DNA from: Lophium mytilinum
Lineage: Eukaryota
DNA: 64,000 nucleotides
Assembly: GCA_010093605.1 (NCBI GenBank)
Contig: MU004189.1
Coordinates: 255,834 to 319,833 of the forward strand
Reading direction: 5' to 3'
Below, in pieces: positions 41,580 to 48,624 of this stretch. Positions within the stretch are counted from its first letter, which is position 1, and every line of letters begins with the position of its first letter. The translations under genes were made by a program, and so were the position numbers. The notes beneath the pieces are model-generated. The model was not told the DNA's origin, searched no databases, and worked only from the letters and a program-made list of their open reading frames with translations.

Positions 41580-44500
41580 ATGACCGAACCATCCTCGCAG
41601 CCTCCCCTCCCCCTAAATGAAACCCACGGGGAGAACAAAGCGCAACCTGCGAGCGCGGAGCAGCCGGAGGAGCACACAGCTATACCAAAGGCCTCAGAAA
41701 CAATACAGAATGCGCAAACTACTGCGCAAGCCCTGACGAATCGCGCTTTGCACTTCTTGGCAACGGCGAGCAACGAGTCCCTTGGGGCATGTCTTGTAGG
41801 ATTGGGCGCAACGACATACTTAGTACTCGGGAGGGTGGGATTGGTGCTCATTGGAGTCGTGGGCGGAGTGGTGCTTCACGCGACCTGGGAGAACCAGAGC
41901 AATGGCAAAGAAGGTGCTCGAGACCATGATGCGAGACGACGGGAGACGGGGCTGGATGTTGTCCACCGAGTCCTTAAATGGCGAGGCGCTGCTGCGGAAT
42001 CGAAAGAGAAGGGAACCGAAGACGATTCTGGTACTGATATCAAGTTGTACTCTGGGAAAAACCTGGACTATTCGGATTTTAAGCCACAAACTGCGTTGGC
42101 TCTCACTGAGTTCACTGATGCCGTGGTGCGGGACTATGTCAAGTACTTCTTCTGATCTATCAACTACGGTCTCGCAAATGCTAACCTTACGGCAGATGGT
42201 GGTATTCGCCCATACTCCCTACCGAGCTATCTTTCCCCAACGCTGCCCGTCAGACCTTGACTGCATTCATCCTCTCCGTTTCCTCACATCTGTCCCGCAA
42301 GAGGCCGGCCGACACTTTCCTCGACTTTGTTACTAATTCGTCCTCCATCTTGATTGTATTCTTCACTGAACTCTCAACCGCCTTGGCAGCGTCACCAAGT
42401 ACGGCTCCTTCTGACGCCATCGATACATACCTACAAATGAAGCCGGATAGTAATCTTGCTAGTGTCTTAGACCCAAAGCATCAGGCTACAAAGTTGGATT
42501 TAGTAGCAGAAGATATTCTGCAAAACTATCTTGAGCCGAAGACATATAACTGTCAACCTGCGCGTGTATTCCTACGGGAAATACTCGCCAAAGTTATCCT
42601 TGAGATGACCGTAGCGAGCTGCTCTAAACCGGAATGGATTAATGGTTGGATTGTATATTTACTTGAAGATGGGGAACCGGAATTGTTGAATGCAATAGAC
42701 GCTGGCGTCGAGGGTTCATCGGGCGAGCGCTTACAAAACGTCACGAATCAAATAAAGCAGCATGAGGAAATCGTCAAGTCGGAGGGGACCGATGAAGAGC
42801 GAAGGAAGACTGCAAATCACAAAAGAGTGGTGAGCAAGGCACAAGAGGCGATGGACGAAGCGATGAGAGAGGCTCAAAGACTGACTGAACTCATCGCTGA
42901 AGAGGATGCTAAAAAGCTCCGTGGTCAGAAACAGCATGCATCGACTAGCAGCATAAATGACGATGTATCCGAAAGCACGACCCAAGGAATGGCAACCCCT
43001 ACTTCATCTCAAAGCGACGCCGCCAACGATCACGATAACGAAGGAACGACATCTGGTAATGCCTCGATGGAGACATCTCGATCTGTGCCCTTGGAAGCGC
43101 CATCGTCACCTCAGAAGACAGCGTTTACAAGCTTCGACCAACTTGTACCTAATCAGCCGCCTACCGCATTATTGGCCAACCCCCCAGAGAAGCCTCCGCC
43201 TTTAACGCTATATAATGCCAATCTCGTGATATTCGATGATTCAATGCCTGGGGACAAAGCCATAATCCGGACGAAACCGAACCCGGAATACCTAATACAG
43301 ATCGAACCGTCCTCCTCTCATCATCCTGGCTGGATGATAGCGAGGAAATTCCCCGACTTCGAAACCCTGCATGAAATTCTACGGCGGATCGCCACTATCT
43401 CTGGGGTGCCTGGATTCACCGAAACTCATCCCACCCTACCTATGTGGAAAGGGCACACTAAGGCCTCGTTTCGTGGTGAGCTAGAGAGATATCTGAATGA
43501 CGCAGTGCGCTTCAAACCTCTAGCTGAGAGTGAGGGCATGAAAAGGTTCCTCGAGAAAGATACCGGTCTCAGCCGATCCCCAAACACCACTGAGAAGGGC
43601 GGCTTTCCTGGTATTGGATGGCCAACACCGGCTGCCTTCGAAACCATGGGCAAGGGTATGTTTGACATTCTCACTAAAGCGCCCAAAGAGGTTGCTGGTG
43701 GTGGCAAGGCTCTTTTCGGTGGAGTCACGGGAGTATTGGGCAATGTGGGATCCCAATTAGGGCCCAAGAAGAGCAATTCCGTACAAAGCACCAGCAGTCT
43801 AAGTCGCTCGACCACTGCCTCTCCAGCTGCGAAGCATGCTCGGGCCGAGAGCACCGTTTCTGAACTGCCGACGCACATCAGAACGGAAAGCTCTGTATCC
43901 CTATTTCCTTCTCGGCGCGCAAGTCAAGATAGCCTCCGCGGTTCTCCGATTGTGGATACACAACCTGCTCTAGTTCCTCAAATGGAGAGGAGACCAAGTT
44001 ACAATCCAGAGCGCCGGCCTAGTTCGTCATCCTACGAGCGAAGCCGAAATAATAGTCGAGCACCATCGCTAAGAGAAAGCCTGGAGTTCTCGCCGATCCA
44101 CGGCGGAGATCAAATCTTGACCCTTCCACCACCTCCAACCGACATGCCTGACGACTACGGCTCACCAACATCATATGGCCCTCCCCTCCCATCCCGAAAG
44201 ACCTACCCAGAAAACGAACCCACCCACTCCCACCACCCCTCCCGCGCATCCAATGCAAGTCTCCCCCTGCCTACAGACGGCCCTACTCTCCCCGCCCGTC
44301 GCCTCTCCACCGCATCCACTACCTCCACCAACCCTCCCAAATCCGCTCGCGCCTCTACCACGAAACCCCCGAAAACCTATCCCCCCTTCTCAGAGCAAGA
44401 GACCCAAGTCACCATCGAGCTCCTCTTCGCCGTCATCAACGAACTCTACACCCTCTCCTCCGCATGGCAAATCCGACGCACCCTCCTCAACGCCGCGAAG

Positions 44501-44878
44501 ACCTTCCTGCTACGCCCGGGGAACCCGCAGCTCGACTCCATCCGCCAACTCCTGCAGTCCACCGTGCTCGACGAAAACACGTCGGATGCGGGCGTGGCTT
44601 TCCATATCCGCAAGATGCGCGCGAATGGGCTGCCCACGGAAGCGGAATTGAAAGCGTGGCCGAAGGAGATGACGGCGGAGGAGAAGGAGAGGTTGAGGGA
44701 TAAGGCGAGGCGGTTGCTCGTGGAGAGGGGCATGCCGCAGGCGCTGACGAGTGTGATGGGGCAGGCGGCGAGTGGGGAGGCGTTGGGGAGGGTGTTTGAT
44801 TGCTTGCAGGTTGAGACGGTGGCGAGGGGGGTGATTTTTGGGCTTTTGTTGCAGGGGATGAGGGCGGTGGTGCAGTGA
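41580..44878 (+). CDS. PXA-PX-Nexin_C domain membrane protein (Mdm1/SNX13-related superfamily)
   Basis: N-terminal TM pair; PXA region (RDYVKWWYSP...FLREILA...PEWIN); PX (WMIARKFPDFETLH...MKRFLEK); C-terminal LYTLSSAWQIRR. One intron at 42144-42195. Confidence 0.88.
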
Positions 44879-45412
44879 GGATTGGGGGGTTGGACTTAGT
44901 TTTCTGTGTGTATTAGTATTTGAGAACGGTTTTGGGAGAGGGGTAGAAGGTATGGTTCATTGAATGCTGGTATGGGGGAATGGTTTTGGGCGCTGGGATT
45001 GGTGTCGAGGTTGCGAGCGTTGATGTAATATAGATTTTAGGTCGCTAGGGCTGAAAGTAATACTGTAGTCCATTCTTGTAGACAAGGGACAGACCACGAG
45101 CAGATACTCTCCATGGCAGATATGATTAAACTTGTTTAGTGTAAGAGGGCCTATATCCGAGTGCTTGTAACTTCAATCAAAGTTAGAGCGTGGGTTACTT
45201 CGTATAATCAACGGGATGTATGGCATTGAGGGCGTTAAGTGGGTGTAAAGGGTACGATACTCTAAAATATCGGCCTAGTGTCTTTACATTGTCATCTGCT
45301 CGCTAGCCCGAGTTCCATAGCTGGATCACTGGCCCTGGTATCCTTCTATTCAGACAAATATTCCTCCCACTGGGCGGCTACGATCTTAGGAGGTACGAAC
45401 TAGCCTCTCGTC

Positions 45413-47608
45413 CTACATCCTTTTATTTGCTACAGCAACTCGATTCAGATCCTCTACAGTTCCGCATGCCATGTGCATTCGATTCCACCAAGCCTTCCAT
45501 TCAGGGTTTGTATGTACCAGACCCCTTGGGAGCCTCTGGACCCTTTCTTCGATACTCAGCCCTGATGTTGTTACATAGCTCCATCGCGTCAAGAGAGCAT
45601 CGATCTGAGCGCGGACAGTTGGGGCTATTTCCACGAAGTCCATATCAAAGCTCCCCTGAGTGCTCCCATTAGACCCAAACCAGAAGCGGTGGTGTTGGAT
45701 GTACTGTAATAACTAGTCAGTAGTTGTTATGGCGATGTAAAGGCATATTAGATAAGTGCGATTGAAAGAGAAGATTGGGAATTGAAATCACGAACCAAGA
45801 CTTTGATGGCCTGTCCCTTTTCAAAGGATAAGAGAAAAGAAGTTTTTTTGTCGTATGTCTGATTAGCAGTCACAGTAATGCCTTGAGGAACCGGTATTCG
45901 GAGAATAATCTCATCGCGTTTGAAGTACCCAGTCTTGCCAGTATTCTTGTCGCGACCCCACCAGCGAGGTCCTACTACCTTCAAATCCATTATCATGTTA
46001 AATTTTGTCAAGCTTAACTCTTCGTCGTTTTTCTTGTCACGATCGATGGGCGAAAATGCCTGGAAGCCATCATCCAAAGACAGCGTTTCCGGATATGCAC
46101 TCCGGAGCTTGCCTTCTTGCTCATTTCTGAGGTCTTCAATAGCAGCGTCTTCGCTGGCGACGTGGTCGGGAGTGTCAACCAAATCAATCTCATGGTCTCC
46201 TTCACGAGCGGTGAAAAAGGTTTTGACAAGTGTCCCCTGGGAAATGTGAGGCGGCAGCTCAAGGAGGTTCTTCACATAACCATCTAGATTCGACCTGCGG
46301 GCCTGAGTAATGACATCGGTCACGTATTTGACCGGGCCCAGCATGTATGGCAAAGTTCGTTCGGCATTGCCCGATGTGCCAGCCTCCACTGGGAAGGACG
46401 CAATCAGCTGGATTTGTAGGTCGTAGAAGTCCTGGTAGAGACGCTGCAGTTCCCAACACCTCCCATCTTCCATCAGGCACTCAATGTTGAACCAGAAGGT
46501 GTCCTTTGCAAAATAGTAGCGGGGGACATACGCTTTAGTAGGGGCGAGCAGTTCGGGGGAATATAACAATCGTGACTTATTCGGGGTGGACACTGGTCCT
46601 AGCCCAAGCGAGAGTACTCCTTCGTTGATACCTGATGTTTCCACCAGATCGTGGGTCACTGCATTGGCGTCCACGAGATCAATCATGTCCGGGTAGGACT
46701 GTAATTGATCGAGGACTCGACGCCTTCCACCGTATCTTCGATAAGCAGGAGATTGCATAACGATATTATCGAACTCGAACCTGGTGATCTGGGAAGCGTT
46801 GTCATCAAACAACTCGAAGATGCTGTTACGGGGGTTGTTTTGCTCGAAAACTGATTCCGGTGCGTTTATCGAGGGATTCGCTGCGCGAAGAGATTCTGCA
46901 TCCTCTGCAACCTTCCTGATCATAGCGTTGTTCTGGCGGAGTAGCTGTCCGAGTTCGTTTATAGATGTCCTATAGTTCATTGGCTACCGTTCTGAGGCTT
47001 GTAGTAGCTTATCGTCACTTACATCTGCAAAAGTTGGATCAGAAGAGTCAACGCTGTTTGTTGGCCTCGAATCTGGGACAACAGTTCCCTCATTGTGTCT
47101 TCTTTCCATATTACACGCGCTTTCTTTTTCCAATTCACGCTTTTGGCGTCCATTGTACCCATCGTCAGATTCCTTACCTCTTCATCGAGGCAAGAAAACA
47201 CGACCATGCATCCTGTCAACGCAATATCGAATGTGGCTACAATATCAGGTCTTGATTTGATCTGTTCCGACCGGCTATTGATATCCTGGAGGAAAAGGGT
47301 CTGGATTTGCGAGAGCGATGCGCTAACGATGGTTGTCTCCGAGCAAAGGCTCCCGATAGTGAGTGACGCATGCTTGTACTGGCCTCGAAGTGAGCTCAGT
47401 GCTTTTGCAGAACTTACTCCGACCGCTGTTATCTTCAACTAACACAATACGTCAGAACATTGTCCGTGGTTCAAGATATGGAGACGCTTAGGGTGATCTC
47501 TAAATCACAGACAGGCTCGAGCAAGGGCCTACAAGCTAGTTTCCTCCAGCTTCGTACCACTACTGGGATCTTACTTACCACAGCAGCGGTGATTGTCAAA
47601 GGATCCAT
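45413..47608 (-). CDS. HeLo-like (fungal STAND N-terminal) domain + Bem1-like PX + two divergent SH3 domains (~636 aa)
   Basis: Exons 47608-47579, 47438-47023, 46969-45796 and 45703-45413 splice in frame. N-terminus MDPLTITAAV...LTGC...WKEDTMRELLSQIRGQQTALTLLIQLLQM; FEFDNIVMQSPAYRR; PX WELQRLYQDFYDLQIQL...RTLPYMLGPV; SH3-like ELSL...WWGRDKNTGKTGYF and LSFEKGQAIKVL...WFGS...GSFDMDFVE. Confidence 0.82.
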
Positions 47609-48624
47609 CACTAAGCGTCTGTTCTCAATCGGCACCCGACAATCAGCCCGGATGATCTGGTAGCTACGATGGGGGATAGAGAGTCATTTGATCGACAAGG
47701 CTGGAGGTGATCTACCGCTCAGCCTCACAGCCCAAAATACGCGCATGAGAATCCTGGGCATTTCTGAGAACTAACCGGACTCCTCTCTCCCATGTTTCAT
47801 GACGCTTGGGGCGGGACATCATCTGGTTAGAATCTCAAGCACTCTATAAATGTCTGATGAGAGAGAAGTTCTAGTCCGTTATGCTGTCAATTCTTGCCAA
47901 TGATGTCAATACTCCGCGCCTGACAGATAAGGATAGCTCTTTTGGAAAGATTGTTTGACTGTTCGTGGAGAAAACCTACTTGTATCGCTGTTCGCGTAGA
48001 ATATAGCAAGCATATGGATCAGTTCTTTGCTCCTCCAATTACCCGGGCTCAAGCCATTCGTAGATTCGCCAAAATAGAGCCAGTGTTGGTGGAGGAGTTG
48101 GAGCTAGGGCTGCTTAAACCAATCGCGCTATGAACCTTGACTTGGGCTAGCGCAATCTCTTCCAAGCCCCAACGTTTCATCGGACGCCAACAAAGCTTGT
48201 GCATGTCGATGAATGCTTCGCCCTCCCCCTTGAGGCCGAAAAGGGTGCCATTGAGCGTCTACGGACGTATCACAGCTGAGCATGGCCACAAGTCGATCAT
48301 TCACTGAATCTCTGCATGGCGGCTGGCGTGGCTGTGACAACACCAAGCTGAATCCGAGCAAAGTCGCGGACTGGCGTCGACCTTGAAATGACGACCGCCC
48401 CTGCAGTTGATATGAGGGGGAATACATATAAGATGCGGGCAGCTGTCTCATGGGCCATTATCCAGTGCAACGACTACTTTCAGTGCGTTTCTATTGTCAG
48501 CTATTGCAACTTGTTTCTGGCCCCTACCTCAGCCTTATTGCATCTCTTCTCGTTCGTTCCGTTATTCCTAAAAGACAGCCTTCCCCGGCTCTTCTGAGTT
48601 CCTTAGCTTTTGCCAACCGTCGAT

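What the first reader, a model, noticed from the sequence alone, without database searches (positions are those of the whole stretch)
45413..47608. HeLo-like cell-death domain fused to a Bem1-like PX and tandem SH3s: candidate NLR-like sensor with an integrated decoy
Seen: four exons with GT-AG introns splice into one intact ~636-aa frame. The first ~150 aa resemble the fungal STAND N-terminal/HeLo-like family (MDPLTITA..., LTGC, W-K-A-x-W-E-M-LL-IRGQQ-AL). Residues at ~46530-46185 closely resemble the PX domain of filamentous-fungal Bem1/BemA (VPRY.F..D.FWF.IEC.MEDGR.WEL.R.YQDFYD.QI.L...FP.EAG...RTLPYM.GPV.YVTD). Two degenerate SH3-like domains follow. Established: HeLo-like domains are effector domains of fungal NLRs related to membrane-targeting cell-death domains. 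Bem1 has the order SH3-SH3-PX-PB1 and scaffolds Cdc42/NoxR. PX-SH3-SH3 is the order of animal p47phox/NOXO1, which fungi are thought to lack. Inference: with no NACHT/NB-ARC, this could be a non-canonical immune or allorecognition protein that uses a captured polarity/NOX-scaffold module as a decoy or membrane-targeting unit. I do not recognise this architecture as described.
Basis: partly seen in the sequence, partly recalled or inferred. Interest (0 to 1): 0.8.

Follow-up and report, generated by a model that had tools for sequence, protein, structure and literature searches.

The report
HeLo-like protein with captured Bem1 PX
A wood fungus expresses a real four-exon gene that joins a helical domain of the kind that punctures membranes in fungal and animal cell death to a copy of the lipid-binding domain of the polarity protein Bem1 and two worn SH3 domains, an unstudied layout whose function is still unknown.

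Summary
Contigs of one public run carry all three introns spliced out, and one contig joins the N-terminal domain to the start of the PX.

- **Domains:** a PF17111 (HeLo-like) N-module (residues 1-227), a PX 71% identical to Bem1/Scd2 PX, two degenerate SH3-like domains and a tail. There is no NACHT or NB-ARC, and no NLR gene nearby.
- **What is new:** the N-module defines a Pezizomycotina family (585 representatives). Its C-termini carry RhoGEF, LIM, MSP, kinase or other modules, never a NOD among the 67 scanned.
- **Origin of the parts:** the nearest subfamily already has the tandem SH3-like region and tail but no PX. Only the PX was captured from Bem1 and inserted into the linker. It is seen in two Mytilinidiaceae species and evolves far faster than Bem1's PX.
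- **Reading:** 'NLR-like sensor with an integrated decoy' is untested. An MLKL-style layout fits better: a conserved membrane-acting head with targeting or regulatory adaptor domains. A non-lethal polarity scaffold remains a serious rival.

Verdict: a new variant of a known kind, of moderate interest.

The parts
45413..47608 (-). Whole coding region of the 636-aa protein: 4 exons (47608-47579, 47438-47023, 46969-45796, 45703-45416) and the stop at 45415-45413.
   Evidence: Sequence read. Identical to deposited protein P0001. Splice joints seen in run X1 contigs.
45245..47892 (-). Extent of the two RNA-derived contigs that cover the gene: record 3 spans 47892-46426 and record 2 spans 46447-45245. 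This includes the 5' and 3' untranslated parts.
   Evidence: table 8. The two contigs overlap by 22 nt inside the PX codons.
47439..47578 (-). Intron 1 (140 nt, GT..AG)
   Evidence: joint 47438->47579.
46970..47022 (-). Intron 2 (53 nt, GT..AG; the cut is ambiguous by 1 nt)
   Evidence: joint 46968->47022 (cut +1); sequence.
45704..45795 (-). Intron 3 (92 nt, GT..AG). It splits the second SH3-like domain. Read-through gives the short ending seen in the Mytilinidion model P0002.
   Evidence: joint 45703->45796.
46735..47608 (-). Conserved N-module, residues 1-227. It comprises a HeLo-like/MLKL-like helical bundle (1-150), two further helices (152-179) and the FEFDNIV.QSPAYRR motif. Introns 1 and 2 lie inside this span.
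   Evidence: PF17111 match at residues 1-174. Family homology runs over residues 1-227. AF2 pLDDT is above 90 for residues 1-190. The domain model has pLDDT 89 and pTM 0.80. VIA matches to MLKL have Z 11.4.
46147..46557 (-). Captured Bem1/Scd2-type PX domain with short flanks, residues 287-423.
   Evidence: tblastn with Bem1 of Mytilinidion, 70.8% identity; BLASTP 71%; Pfam PX above cut-off; yeast Bem1 PX structures at E 7.5e-25. Appears as an insertion relative to the sister subfamily.
45901..46050 (-). First SH3-like domain, residues ~456-505. It is degenerate: the WW is kept, and the usual ...FP..Y is replaced.
   Evidence: SH3_1 21.6 bits against a cut-off of 22.9. The subfamily profile finds only SH3 domains in the PDB, best E 0.016. 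ESM Atlas leads.
45620..45882 (-). Second SH3-like domain, residues ~512-568, split by intron 3.
   Evidence: SH3_2 23.4 bits against a cut-off of 21.8. Aligns to P0137.
45416..45619 (-). C-terminal tail, residues 569-636, predicted helical. No known family. Shared with P0137.
   Evidence: No Pfam hit for exon 4. BLAST alignment to P0137 runs into the tail. Low-confidence helices.

Best explanation
**Shown.** This is an intact, transcribed, lineage-specific chimeric gene.
[quoted passage not shown] The module models confidently as a helical bundle.
- The module heads a Pezizomycotina-wide family of NOD-less proteins. Their C-termini carry interchangeable adaptor modules: RhoGEF, LIM, MSP, SH3-like, kinase, Ank, TPR and others.
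- The branch leading to this gene already had a tandem SH3-like region and a tail.
- The two Mytilinidiaceae proteins share a 137-residue copy of the Bem1/Scd2 PX domain, inserted into the linker between head and SH3s. Five shared derived residues point to a single capture before the species split.
- This PX has since evolved 16-38 times faster than Bem1's own. It still keeps most of the residues that are invariant in Bem1.

**Inferred mechanism.** The protein works in the manner of MLKL.
- The conserved N-terminal bundle is the output part. It docks onto or perturbs a membrane through its N-terminal helix.
- The C-terminal domains decide where and when this happens.
- The acquired PX adds phosphoinositide-dependent recruitment to the membranes where Bem1's PX acts, and possibly Bem1-type protein contacts.
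- The SH3-like pair has lost most proline-peptide-binding residues. It would serve as an atypical interaction or autoinhibitory unit.

Whether the output is cell death was not tested.
For: **Gene and transcript:**

**The N-module belongs to PF17111:**
- P0001 scores 21.9 bits, E 1.3e-4, starting at residue 1.
- 37 of 84 family members match PF17111 at E<=0.01 (best 8.5e-9). Two match SesA and one matches HeLo.
- 25 of 67 longer members match at E<=1e-3, and 9 of 67 exceed the cut-off.
- These members are 33-50% identical to P0001 over about residues 1-227.

**Fold:**
- The AF2 domain model has pLDDT 89.1.
- A short helix sits between the third and fourth long helices. PMC9815663 (passages read) names this as a feature of MLKL and HeLo-likes.
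- VIA against 48,161 chains: MLKL 4btf Z 11.4, rmsd 2.6, 97 aligned (rank 3); MLKL NTD 6ux8 Z 10.6; Rx CC 10.8; NRG1.1 CC-R 10.1; MLA13 9.7; AtMLKL3 8.9.

**Family and partner modules:**
- 585 representatives at E<=1e-3.
- Among 67 scanned: RhoGEF 17, LIM 8, MSP 3, single cases of other modules, no NOD.
- Named hosts fall in three classes.

**PX insertion:**
- Sister clade without a PX (SH-aLRT 83).
- Colinear match of P0137 to residues 1-201 and 463-579.
- Alignment shows the PX as an insert.

**PX origin and rate:**
-.
- Tree: P0001 and P0002 form one clade, with branches of 0.64 and 1.52 against a median of 0.04.
- Of 74 Bem1-invariant columns, P0001 keeps 62 and P0002 keeps 52. Five derived residues are shared.
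- Arg325, Arg373-Arg374 and the DFYD stretch are kept in P0001.

**Conservation gradient between the two species:** N-module 88%, PX 68%, SH3-1 56%, SH3-2 part 49%.

**Published roles (passages read):**
- HeLo/HELL domains as membrane-targeting death domains, and MLKL release by its C-terminal domain: PMC12881547.
- Bem1 PX binds phosphoinositides. [quoted passage not shown]
Against: - P0001's own PF17111 score is below Pfam's cut-off.
- The fold matches are in the range the tool calls common for helical bundles. The top row is IncA at Z 13.1, and THATCH and talin bundles reach about 10.4.
- Foldseek found nothing at E<=1e-3 with either model.
- The family profile found nothing significant among PDB sequences.
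- No member of this subfamily has been tested for toxicity or membrane binding.
- The partner modules (RhoGEF, LIM, SH3, PX, MSP) are those of ordinary cortical signalling proteins. That fits a non-lethal role equally well.
- PX and SH3 folds were not modelled: pLDDT was below 50 with an alignment depth of 2.
- The sister-clade support is modest (83), and the join of the two PX rows in the tree carries a long-branch warning.
- No single contig spans the whole mRNA.
Confidence: 0.45

Rival explanations
1. Non-lethal polarity or trafficking scaffold. The N-module would be a membrane- or cytoskeleton-docking or oligomerising helical bundle used in normal cortical signalling. The family would simply be fungal adaptor proteins for Rho GTPase and polarity modules. 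The captured PX would send this member to Bem1-type membranes, where it could modulate or compete with Bem1.
For: - Partner modules are typical cortical signalling parts: RhoGEF 17, LIM 8 (nearest solved structure paxillin), MSP 3 (nearest VAP/Scs2), PH and SH3.
- The gene is expressed at ordinary depth in the one run found.
- Neighbouring genes are housekeeping.
- The fold search also lists the actin-binding THATCH cores of HIP1R and Sla2 (Z 10.4, 10.3) and talin R13.
- There is no NOD, and no NLR partner gene nearby. No amyloid motif was recognised by eye.
Against: - At sequence level the module matches PF17111, SesA and HeLo, and no cytoskeletal family.
- It starts at residue 1 with the MDPL.I.. 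helix, which is typical of the family consensus.
- The PX and SH3 parts evolve fast. That is unusual for a core scaffold.
Confidence: 0.3
2. One reading: a guard or bait protein. The Bem1-like PX would be an integrated decoy. When a toxin or effector that targets Bem1 binds or modifies it, the HeLo-like head would be released and kill the cell, without any NOD module.
For: - The PX is a recent, lineage-restricted copy of a conserved hub protein's domain.
- It is fused to a domain family used as a death effector (passages in PMC12881547).
- It keeps most Bem1-invariant residues, including DFYD in P0001. A DFYD stretch was studied by mutation in mammalian GIV; for Bem1p the role is only inferred (PMC7322189).
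- The head is conserved and the C-terminal parts evolve fast.
- Integrated decoys have been proposed for Sordariales NLRs (PMC12258605, section 20 passage).
Against: - There is no direct evidence at all.
- The SH3-like part is not from Bem1.
- The Mytilinidion orthologue has changed 22 of 74 Bem1-invariant positions, and DFYD has become DFYK. That is poor mimicry.
- Other partners look like old, divergent modules, not recent copies of housekeeping genes: the RhoGEF of P0123 has no PDB match at E<=0.01, and 5 of the 17 RhoGEF matches fall below Pfam's cut-off.
- No polymorphism data could be obtained.
Confidence: 0.1
3. A young chimeric gene with little or no function in its new part. The PX insertion would be a tolerated accident that is decaying, and the protein would act, if at all, like its PX-less relatives.
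For: - The PX branches are very long.
- The SH3 motifs are degenerate.
- The architecture was found in only two species.
Against: - The frame is intact and spliced in Lophium.
- The PX is kept in both species, with 47 of 74 Bem1-invariant columns unchanged in both, including the basic residues and the hydrophobic core.
- The PX still passes Pfam's cut-off in both proteins (26 and 39 bits).
Confidence: 0.08

Closest known systems
HeLo / HeLo-like (HELL) cell-death proteins of filamentous fungi (HET-S, HELLP, HELLF; Pfam PF14479 and PF17111)
   Same: Both have an N-terminal helical-bundle domain starting at residue 1. Family members match PF17111, and a few match SesA or HeLo. The predicted fold is similar to the MLKL four-helix bundle.
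   Different: Those proteins end in an amyloid signalling motif and sit beside an NLR gene. This one ends in PX, two SH3-like domains and a tail, and has no NLR neighbour. Toxicity is unknown for this subfamily.
MLKL (animals) and plant MLKLs: four-helix bundle, brace helices and a regulatory pseudokinase
   Same: The layout matches: a conserved N-terminal bundle, two extra helices, then a C-terminal non-NOD domain that could regulate it. Structural matches are 4btf Z 11.4, 6ux8 Z 10.6 and 6ka4 Z 8.9. One family member, P0160, even carries a protein kinase domain.
   Different: This protein has no kinase. The C-terminus holds lipid- and peptide-binding adaptor domains. Sequence identity to MLKL is only 12-16% over the aligned parts. 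Homology is inferred through PF17111 and is not shown directly.
Fungal 'all-in-one' NLRs with a HeLo-like N-terminus (HeLo-like-NACHT-WD40/ANK/TPR)
   Same: Same kind of N-terminal domain (PF17111).
   Different: There is no NACHT or NB-ARC and there are no repeats in P0001. None of the 67 relatives scanned has a NOD, and the 150 listed relatives are 112-916 aa long.
Bem1 / Scd2 / BemA polarity scaffold (SH3-SH3-PX-PB1)
   Same: The PX is a clear derivative: 64-74% identity to 118 Dothideomycete Bem1 PX domains. Yeast Bem1 PX is the nearest solved structure.
   Different: There is no PB1. The SH3-like domains lie after the PX and are not detectably related to Bem1's. The PX evolves 16-38 times faster. 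The canonical Scd2 exists separately in Mytilinidion resinicola (P0017).
p47phox / NOXO1 (PX-SH3-SH3)
   Same: Same domain order. Weak PX similarity (1kq6 E 2.4e-4).
   Different: The order arose by insertion of a Bem1 PX in front of older SH3-like domains, so it is convergent. In the p47phox chain that includes SH3, only the PX region matched (8wej_C). No autoinhibitory or proline-rich tail was seen by eye. Fungi are reported to lack p47phox (PMC2121648 passage).
Integrated decoys of plant NLRs and putative ones of Sordariales NLRs
   Same: A copy of a conserved host protein's domain is fused to an immune-type effector domain.
   Different: Those decoys sit in NOD-containing receptors (PMC12258605 passage). 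Here there is no NOD and no evidence of bait function.

Membership tests
PF17111 HeLo-like (Helo_like_N / PigL_N) | Match to the Pfam model at or above its gathering score | tested here: inconclusive
   P0001 scores 21.9 bits and P0002 18.1, against a cut-off of 27.2. Nine of 67 longer relatives exceed the cut-off and 25 of 67 match at E<=1e-3. Of 84 members, 37 match at E<=0.01. These relatives are 33-50% identical to P0001 over residues 1-227, so membership follows by homology and not by the protein's own score.
PF17111 HeLo-like (Helo_like_N / PigL_N) | Domain at the extreme N-terminus, beginning with a conserved helix | tested here: met
   The match starts at residue 1 and profile position 1. 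M1, P3, L4, I6, T7 and V10 are invariant in the subfamily. A helix from residue 3 is modelled with pLDDT above 90.
PF17111 HeLo-like (Helo_like_N / PigL_N) | MLKL-like four-helix-bundle fold with a short helix between the third and fourth helices | tested here: inconclusive
   The domain model has pLDDT 89.1, with helices at 2-20, 25-51, 53-61/64-96, a short one at 103-110, and 113-138. MLKL 4btf gives Z 11.4, rmsd 2.6, 97 aligned. Several CC/CC-R domains give Z 9.7-10.8. The tool warns that Z under about 13 is common for helical bundles, and Foldseek gave no E<=1e-3.
PF17111 HeLo-like (Helo_like_N / PigL_N) | Membrane targeting and cell-death induction | not testable with these tools
   Needs expression experiments.
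Fungal NLR (STAND) receptors | NACHT or NB-ARC nucleotide-binding domain | tested here: not met
   No such Pfam hit at E<=1 in P0001 or P0002, nor at E<=1e-3 in the 67 relatives.
Fungal NLR (STAND) receptors | C-terminal WD40, ANK, TPR or HEAT repeats | tested here: not met
   None in P0001. Single relatives carry Ank (P0257) or TPR (P0273), but without a NOD.
Amyloid-controlled HeLo(-like) executioners (HET-S / HELLP type) | Adjacent NLR gene with a matching amyloid motif | tested here: not met
   Sixteen long ORFs between 34.5 and 60.2 kb have only housekeeping-type Pfam hits. The C-terminus is an SH3-like domain and a helical tail. No amyloid motif was recognised by eye, and no dedicated motif search was run.
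Bem1 / Scd2 | PX domain of the Bem1 type | tested here: met
   71% identity over 137 residues to Mytilinidion Scd2. Yeast Bem1 PX at E 7.5e-25.
Bem1 / Scd2 | SH3-SH3-PX-PB1 order with a PB1 domain | tested here: not met
   No PB1 hit. The SH3-like domains follow the PX. P0017 shows the canonical set in the same scan.
p47phox / NOXO1 | PX-SH3-SH3 order | tested here: met
   domain positions: PX 317-403, SH3 461-498 and 520-566.
p47phox / NOXO1 | Common descent of the PX and bis-SH3 unit | tested here: not met
   The PX is far closer to Bem1 PX domains (64-74% identity; yeast Bem1 PX E 7.5e-25 against p47phox PX E 2.4e-4). No p47phox sequence was put in the tree. The SH3-like pair predates the PX in the subfamily.
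SH3 domain | Pfam SH3 model at or above cut-off | tested here: met
   Met for the second domain: SH3_2 23.4 bits against 21.8. The first domain is just below: SH3_1 21.6 against 22.9. In the subfamily profile search, all 55 listed PDB rows at E<=10 are SH3 domains, but the best E is only 0.016. Fold not modelled.

The most novel reading that the evidence does not exclude
The gene is one snapshot of a wider, undescribed fungal system. The system would be a family of NOD-less, MLKL-style death executors in which a constant HeLo-like head is wired to swappable copies of polarity and cortex machinery domains (Bem1 PX here; RhoGEF, paxillin-like LIM and VAP-like MSP elsewhere). These domains would act as baits or sensors for toxins and effectors that attack the Cdc42-Bem1 polarity hub. 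The Mytilinidiaceae PX capture would then show a bait being acquired.
Probability: 0.1. Interest if true: 0.85.

Novelty: new variant of a known kind. Interest (0 to 1): 0.5.

Why it matters
HeLo-like domains are so far discussed as effectors of NLRs or of amyloid-coupled NLR partners. Here the same kind of domain heads a large set of proteins that have no NOD. Instead they carry adaptor or signalling modules, which is the layout that makes MLKL a regulated executioner.

If the head is lethal, this family would be a second, NLR-independent way of controlling membrane-attack domains in fungi, and the C-terminal modules would point to what is being sensed. If it is not lethal, PF17111 has a non-immune cortical role, and that would temper genome-wide counts of 'immune' domains.

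The gene itself is a dated example of domain capture. A 137-residue piece of an essential polarity scaffold was inserted into a linker, kept in two species, and then evolved much faster than its parent.

Tried and rejected
- **Whole genome:** none is held for this window. A second bem1 in the same genome, strain polymorphism and gene conversion could not be examined.
- **RNA runs:** no holder is listed as RNA. The one run found is only guessed to be RNA, and its nature rests on the spliced joints.
- **Composite alignments A1 and A2** (N-family plus Bem1 fragments): Bem1 fragments were placed away from the PX, so both were dropped. A3 (PX only) was used for column counts, not for folding.
- **Full-length AF2**: PX, SH3 and tail came out below pLDDT 50, so there is no fold evidence for them.
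- **Foldseek against the PDB**, with the full model and the domain model: nothing at E<=1e-3.
- **HET-s HeLo structures:** none among the 50 rows shown by VIA. This is no evidence against kinship.
- **Family profile A4 against PDB sequences:** nothing significant.
- **The listing of cluster members:** switched off, so most family members remain unnamed.
- **Bem1 search:** 992 hits, 120 listed, and no row named for Lophium mytilinum. The nearest row is an unnamed 629-aa protein, 85% identical to Mytilinidion Scd2.
- **p47phox orthology:** rejected.
- **Bem1 origin of the SH3-like domains:** rejected for lack of any significant match (best E 1.6).
- **Earlier findings of this scan:** nothing relevant.
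- **Literature searches:**
  - Searches found no paper describing HeLo-like domains fused to PX, SH3, RhoGEF or LIM.
  - One search was swamped by 'piglet'.
  - One search was a malformed query.
Full report
**Gene model**

The region holds one gene on the minus strand. From the sequence and the frames, the exons are 47608-47579, 47438-47023, 46969-45796 and 45703-45416, with the stop at 45415-45413. All introns are GT..AG. The spliced product is identical to a deposited 636-aa protein, P0001: 'hypothetical protein BU16DRAFT_527008 [Lophium mytilinum]', named 'PX domain-containing protein' in UniRef. tblastn of P0001 on the window gives 100% identity over the three larger exons.

**Transcription**

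One public run (X1) holds 82% of the sampled words. Its kind is only guessed to be RNA, and no holder is on record as RNA.
- When laid on 45000-48000, its contigs skip 47439-47578, 46969-47021 (cut ambiguous by one base) and 45704-45795. Each skip has CT..AC ends on the + strand. All 8 laid pieces are at least 99% alike.
- One 1274-nt contig runs from the 5' leader through exons 1 and 2 into exon 3 as far as 46426, which is 44 codons into the PX. A 1111-nt contig runs from 46447 to 45245.
- The two contigs overlap by 22 nt, and none spans the whole message.
- So the N-terminal domain and the PX are on one spliced RNA-derived contig. A single full-length mRNA is the simplest reading but is not shown outright.
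- The break lies over the codons for ELQRLYQDFY, which are identical to Bem1. The depth in that bin is 304 against 43-51 elsewhere. Words shared with a more abundant transcript would explain both. I could not test this.

**Domains**

Pfam on P0001:

| Model | Residues | Bits | Cut-off |
|---|---|---|---|
| PX | 317-403 | 26.0 | 21.6 |
| SH3_2 | 520-566 | 23.4 | 21.8 |
| SH3_1 | 461-498 | 21.6 | 22.9 |
| PigL_N (PF17111, earlier Helo_like_N) | 1-174 | 21.9 | 27.2 |

- There is nothing else at E<=1, so no NACHT or NB-ARC.
- Against PDB sequences, the best matches are the yeast Bem1 PX structures (2czo E 7.5e-25, 2v6v). PX domains of p47phox, p40phox and NOXO1 follow at E 2.4e-4 to 0.017. Weak SH3 rows have E of 0.29-0.91.
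- The ESM Atlas gives only SH3 families for residues 436-636. The score is 0.84, which is lead level.
- A profile of the subfamily finds 55 listed PDB rows at E<=10. All are SH3 domains, but the best E is 0.016.
- I read the second SH3 as supported and the first as probable. By eye, both have lost most of the residues that usually hold proline peptides.

**The N-terminal module**

phmmer with exon 2 (139 aa) against 1.84 billion representatives gave 585 proteins at E<=1e-3, 299 at E<=1e-10 and 26 at E<=1e-30. The 150 listed are 112-916 aa long.
- BLAST of P0001 against the 149 relatives fetched from that list gave one alignment each. For 77 of them the alignment runs past residue 175, typically ending at 227, at 33-50% identity. 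Apart from P0002, no listed relative shares the PX; P0137 shares the SH3-like region and tail.
- Pfam on the 67 hits of at least 330 aa: PF17111 matches at E<=1e-3 in 25 and above the cut-off in 9.
- Among 84 mostly short members, 37 match PF17111 at E<=0.01 (best 8.5e-9), 2 match SesA and 1 matches HeLo.
- The module is therefore homologous to PF17111 members, although P0001 alone scores below the cut-off.

**Predicted fold of the N-module**

- AlphaFold2 with 84 sequences modelled residues 1-190 at pLDDT above 90.
- The exon-2 domain alone reached pLDDT 89.1 and pTM 0.80, with a short helix between the third and fourth long helices. PMC9815663 names that helix as shared by MLKL and HeLo-likes (passages read).
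- Foldseek gave nothing at E<=1e-3.
- VIA-align against 48,161 chains put MLKL (4btf) at rank 3: Z 11.4, rmsd 2.6, 97 aligned, 16% identity.
- Other rows of that search: Rx CC 10.8, MLKL NTD 10.6, NRG1.1 CC-R 10.1, MLA13 9.7, Sw-5b 9.4, AtMLKL3 8.9.
- Generic bundles score as high or higher: IncA 13.1, and THATCH cores 10.3-10.4.
- The tool states that such Z values are common for helical bundles. The fold evidence is consistent with an MLKL-like bundle but does not decide it.

**A family with interchangeable C-termini**

Counts among the 67 longer relatives:

| C-terminal module | Relatives | Note |
|---|---|---|
| RhoGEF | 17 | 12 above cut-off |
| LIM | 8 | |
| MSP | 3 | |
| Weak SH3 | 2 | |
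| Protein kinase, ankyrin repeats, MIT, ubiquitin, Vts1, Kelch, PH_5 | 1 each | |
| No Pfam hit at all | 19 | |
| NOD | 0 | |

- A word-based search with residues 1-230 returned 16 proteins. The named ones are from Dothideomycetes (Lepidopterella, Aulographum, Coniosporium, Lojkania, Clohesyomyces, Microthyrium), a Leotiomycete (Hyaloscypha, TPR partner) and a Sordariomycete (Podospora didyma, LIM partner).
- The LIM partner of P0135 is nearest to paxillin (E 6.7e-14).
- The MSP partner of P0140 is nearest to VAP-A and Scs2.
- The RhoGEF protein P0123 has no PDB match at E<=0.01.
- On a tree of the N-module, partner labels are clustered but need 23 changes where 12 is the minimum. The shuffled mean is 35.6, reached in 0 of 200 shuffles. 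The tree used 69 of 78 rows; 9 were dropped for incomplete modules.

**Only the PX was captured**

- In the N-module tree, P0001 and P0002 (SH-aLRT 99) are sister (83) to a clade of four proteins (100): P0137, P0197, P0225 and P0234. None has a PX.
- P0137 (500 aa) matches P0001 colinearly twice: residues 1-201 at 45% (E 3e-55), and residues 463-579 against its 307-426 at 31% (E 1e-7). The alignment runs on into the tail.
- The six-sequence alignment shows the PX and its flanks as a block present only in P0001 and P0002.
- The tandem SH3-like region and tail are therefore older than the PX.
- The PX (P0001 287-423 = Scd2 316-448) was inserted into the linker.
- The PX-SH3-SH3 order is a by-product of this insertion. 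It is not a captured Bem1 module or a p47phox-like module.
- Bem1's own SH3 domains show no significant similarity to these (best E 1.6).

**Evolution of the PX**

- It is 64-74% identical to 118 Dothideomycete Bem1 PX domains, but only 65% identical to its own orthologue.
- In a 120-row tree the two proteins form one clade (SH-aLRT 96). Their end branches are 0.64 and 1.52 against a median of 0.04. The program warns that the two long branches meet.
- Of 74 columns invariant in 29 Bem1 fragments, P0001 keeps 62, P0002 keeps 52 and both keep 47.
- Five identical derived residues are shared (S370T, N371Q, I381V, G388P, Y408H). This argues for one capture before the species split.
- Columns invariant across all 31 sequences include Arg325, Arg373-Arg374 and the hydrophobic core.
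- P0001 keeps DFYD, while P0002 has DFYK.
- Between the two species, identity is 88% in the N-module, 62% and 70% in the linkers, 68% in the PX, 56% in SH3-1 and 49% in the part of SH3-2 present in both.
- P0002 (553 aa) ends in what is intron read-through in Lophium, so its model is probably cut short. This is an inference.

**Is there a separate bem1?**

Mytilinidion resinicola has both the orthologue P0002 and a canonical Scd2, P0017, with SH3-SH3-PX-PB1. For Lophium I could not confirm one:
- No genome is held.
- The window has no second copy.
- None of the 120 listed rows (of 992 hits) carries its name.

**Context**

Sixteen long ORFs between 34.5 and 60.2 kb gave only housekeeping-type families, and no NACHT, NB-ARC or HET. 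The families are a PXA-PX-Nexin_C sorting nexin lying tail to tail at 42185-44878, DUF7702, SAGA-Tad1, MBOAT, AP endonuclease 2, a short-chain dehydrogenase, a thioesterase and FUSC_2.

**How it most likely works**

*Shown:*
- The anatomy.
- The transcript.
- The family.
- The PX insertion.
- The gradient of conservation.

*Established from papers (passages read):*
- HeLo and HELL domains target membranes and kill, and depend on their N-terminal helix.
- MLKL's bundle is released by its C-terminal domain (PMC12881547).
- Bem1's PX binds phosphoinositides (PMC6740199).
- A wider Bem1 region (aa 309-510), holding three-quarters of the PX and half of the PB1, binds Exo70 (PMC6740199; PMC7322189).

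*Inferred:*
- The conserved head is the output.
- The C-terminal adaptors set place and time.
- The PX adds recruitment to Bem1-type membranes.

*Odds:*

| Model | Probability |
|---|---|
| MLKL-style model | about 0.45 |
| Non-lethal cortical scaffold | 0.3 |
| Decoy model | 0.1 |
| Tolerated, decaying insertion | 0.08 |

**Novelty**

- Searches of the paper library and passages of PMC9815663, PMC12258605 and PMC12881547 describe HeLo-like domains in NLRs or amyloid-coupled partners. They also describe putative integrated decoys inside Sordariales NLRs.
- I found no description of HeLo-like domains joined to PX, SH3, RhoGEF, LIM or MSP modules. Subscription-only papers and supplementary tables were not searched.
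- The protein itself is deposited, but only as a hypothetical protein.
- I rate it a new variant of a known kind. It has moderate interest for the gene itself, and more for the family pattern.

Noticed in passing
window 42185-44878 (+): The tail-to-tail neighbour, 535 bp away, is a PXA-PX-Nexin_C sorting nexin (Mdm1/Snx13-like). Two PX-domain genes therefore lie side by side. Its PX is unrelated at the level of tblastn with P0001 (no hit there at E<=1e-3).
   Followed up: partly
window 46414-46514: Contig depth in run X1 jumps to 304 (43-51 elsewhere), and the two transcript contigs break at 46426-46447. This is exactly over the codons identical to Bem1 (ELQRLYQDFY). It may reflect words shared with bem1 mRNA or gene conversion.
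   Followed up: no
window 47892-47980: Two further GT..AG-type joints sit upstream of the start codon: skips of 87 and 60 nt, with short sides of 21-22 nt. This could be a 5'-UTR intron with alternative donors, or another transcript.
   Followed up: no
P0002 (Mytilinidion resinicola) and P0225, C-terminal ends: Both deposited or predicted models stop just after the position of Lophium intron 3, inside the second SH3-like domain. P0002 ends in residues that match the Lophium intron read-through. These are probably truncated gene models.
   Followed up: partly
P0160 (617 aa, unnamed family member): The same N-module is fused to a protein kinase domain (Pkinase 91.9 bits). This is a fungal protein with the MLKL domain order.
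   Followed up: no
P0123, P0135, P0140 and other family members: The N-module's partners are almost all cortical or polarity-type modules: RhoGEF 17, LIM 8 (paxillin-like) and MSP 3 (VAP/Scs2-like) of the 67 scanned. The reason is unknown.
   Followed up: partly
window 45416-45619 (residues 569-636): The C-terminal tail after the second SH3-like domain has no Pfam family but is shared with P0137 (CGTVEDL against CGSVEEI). It is an unnamed conserved element of the subfamily.
   Followed up: partly
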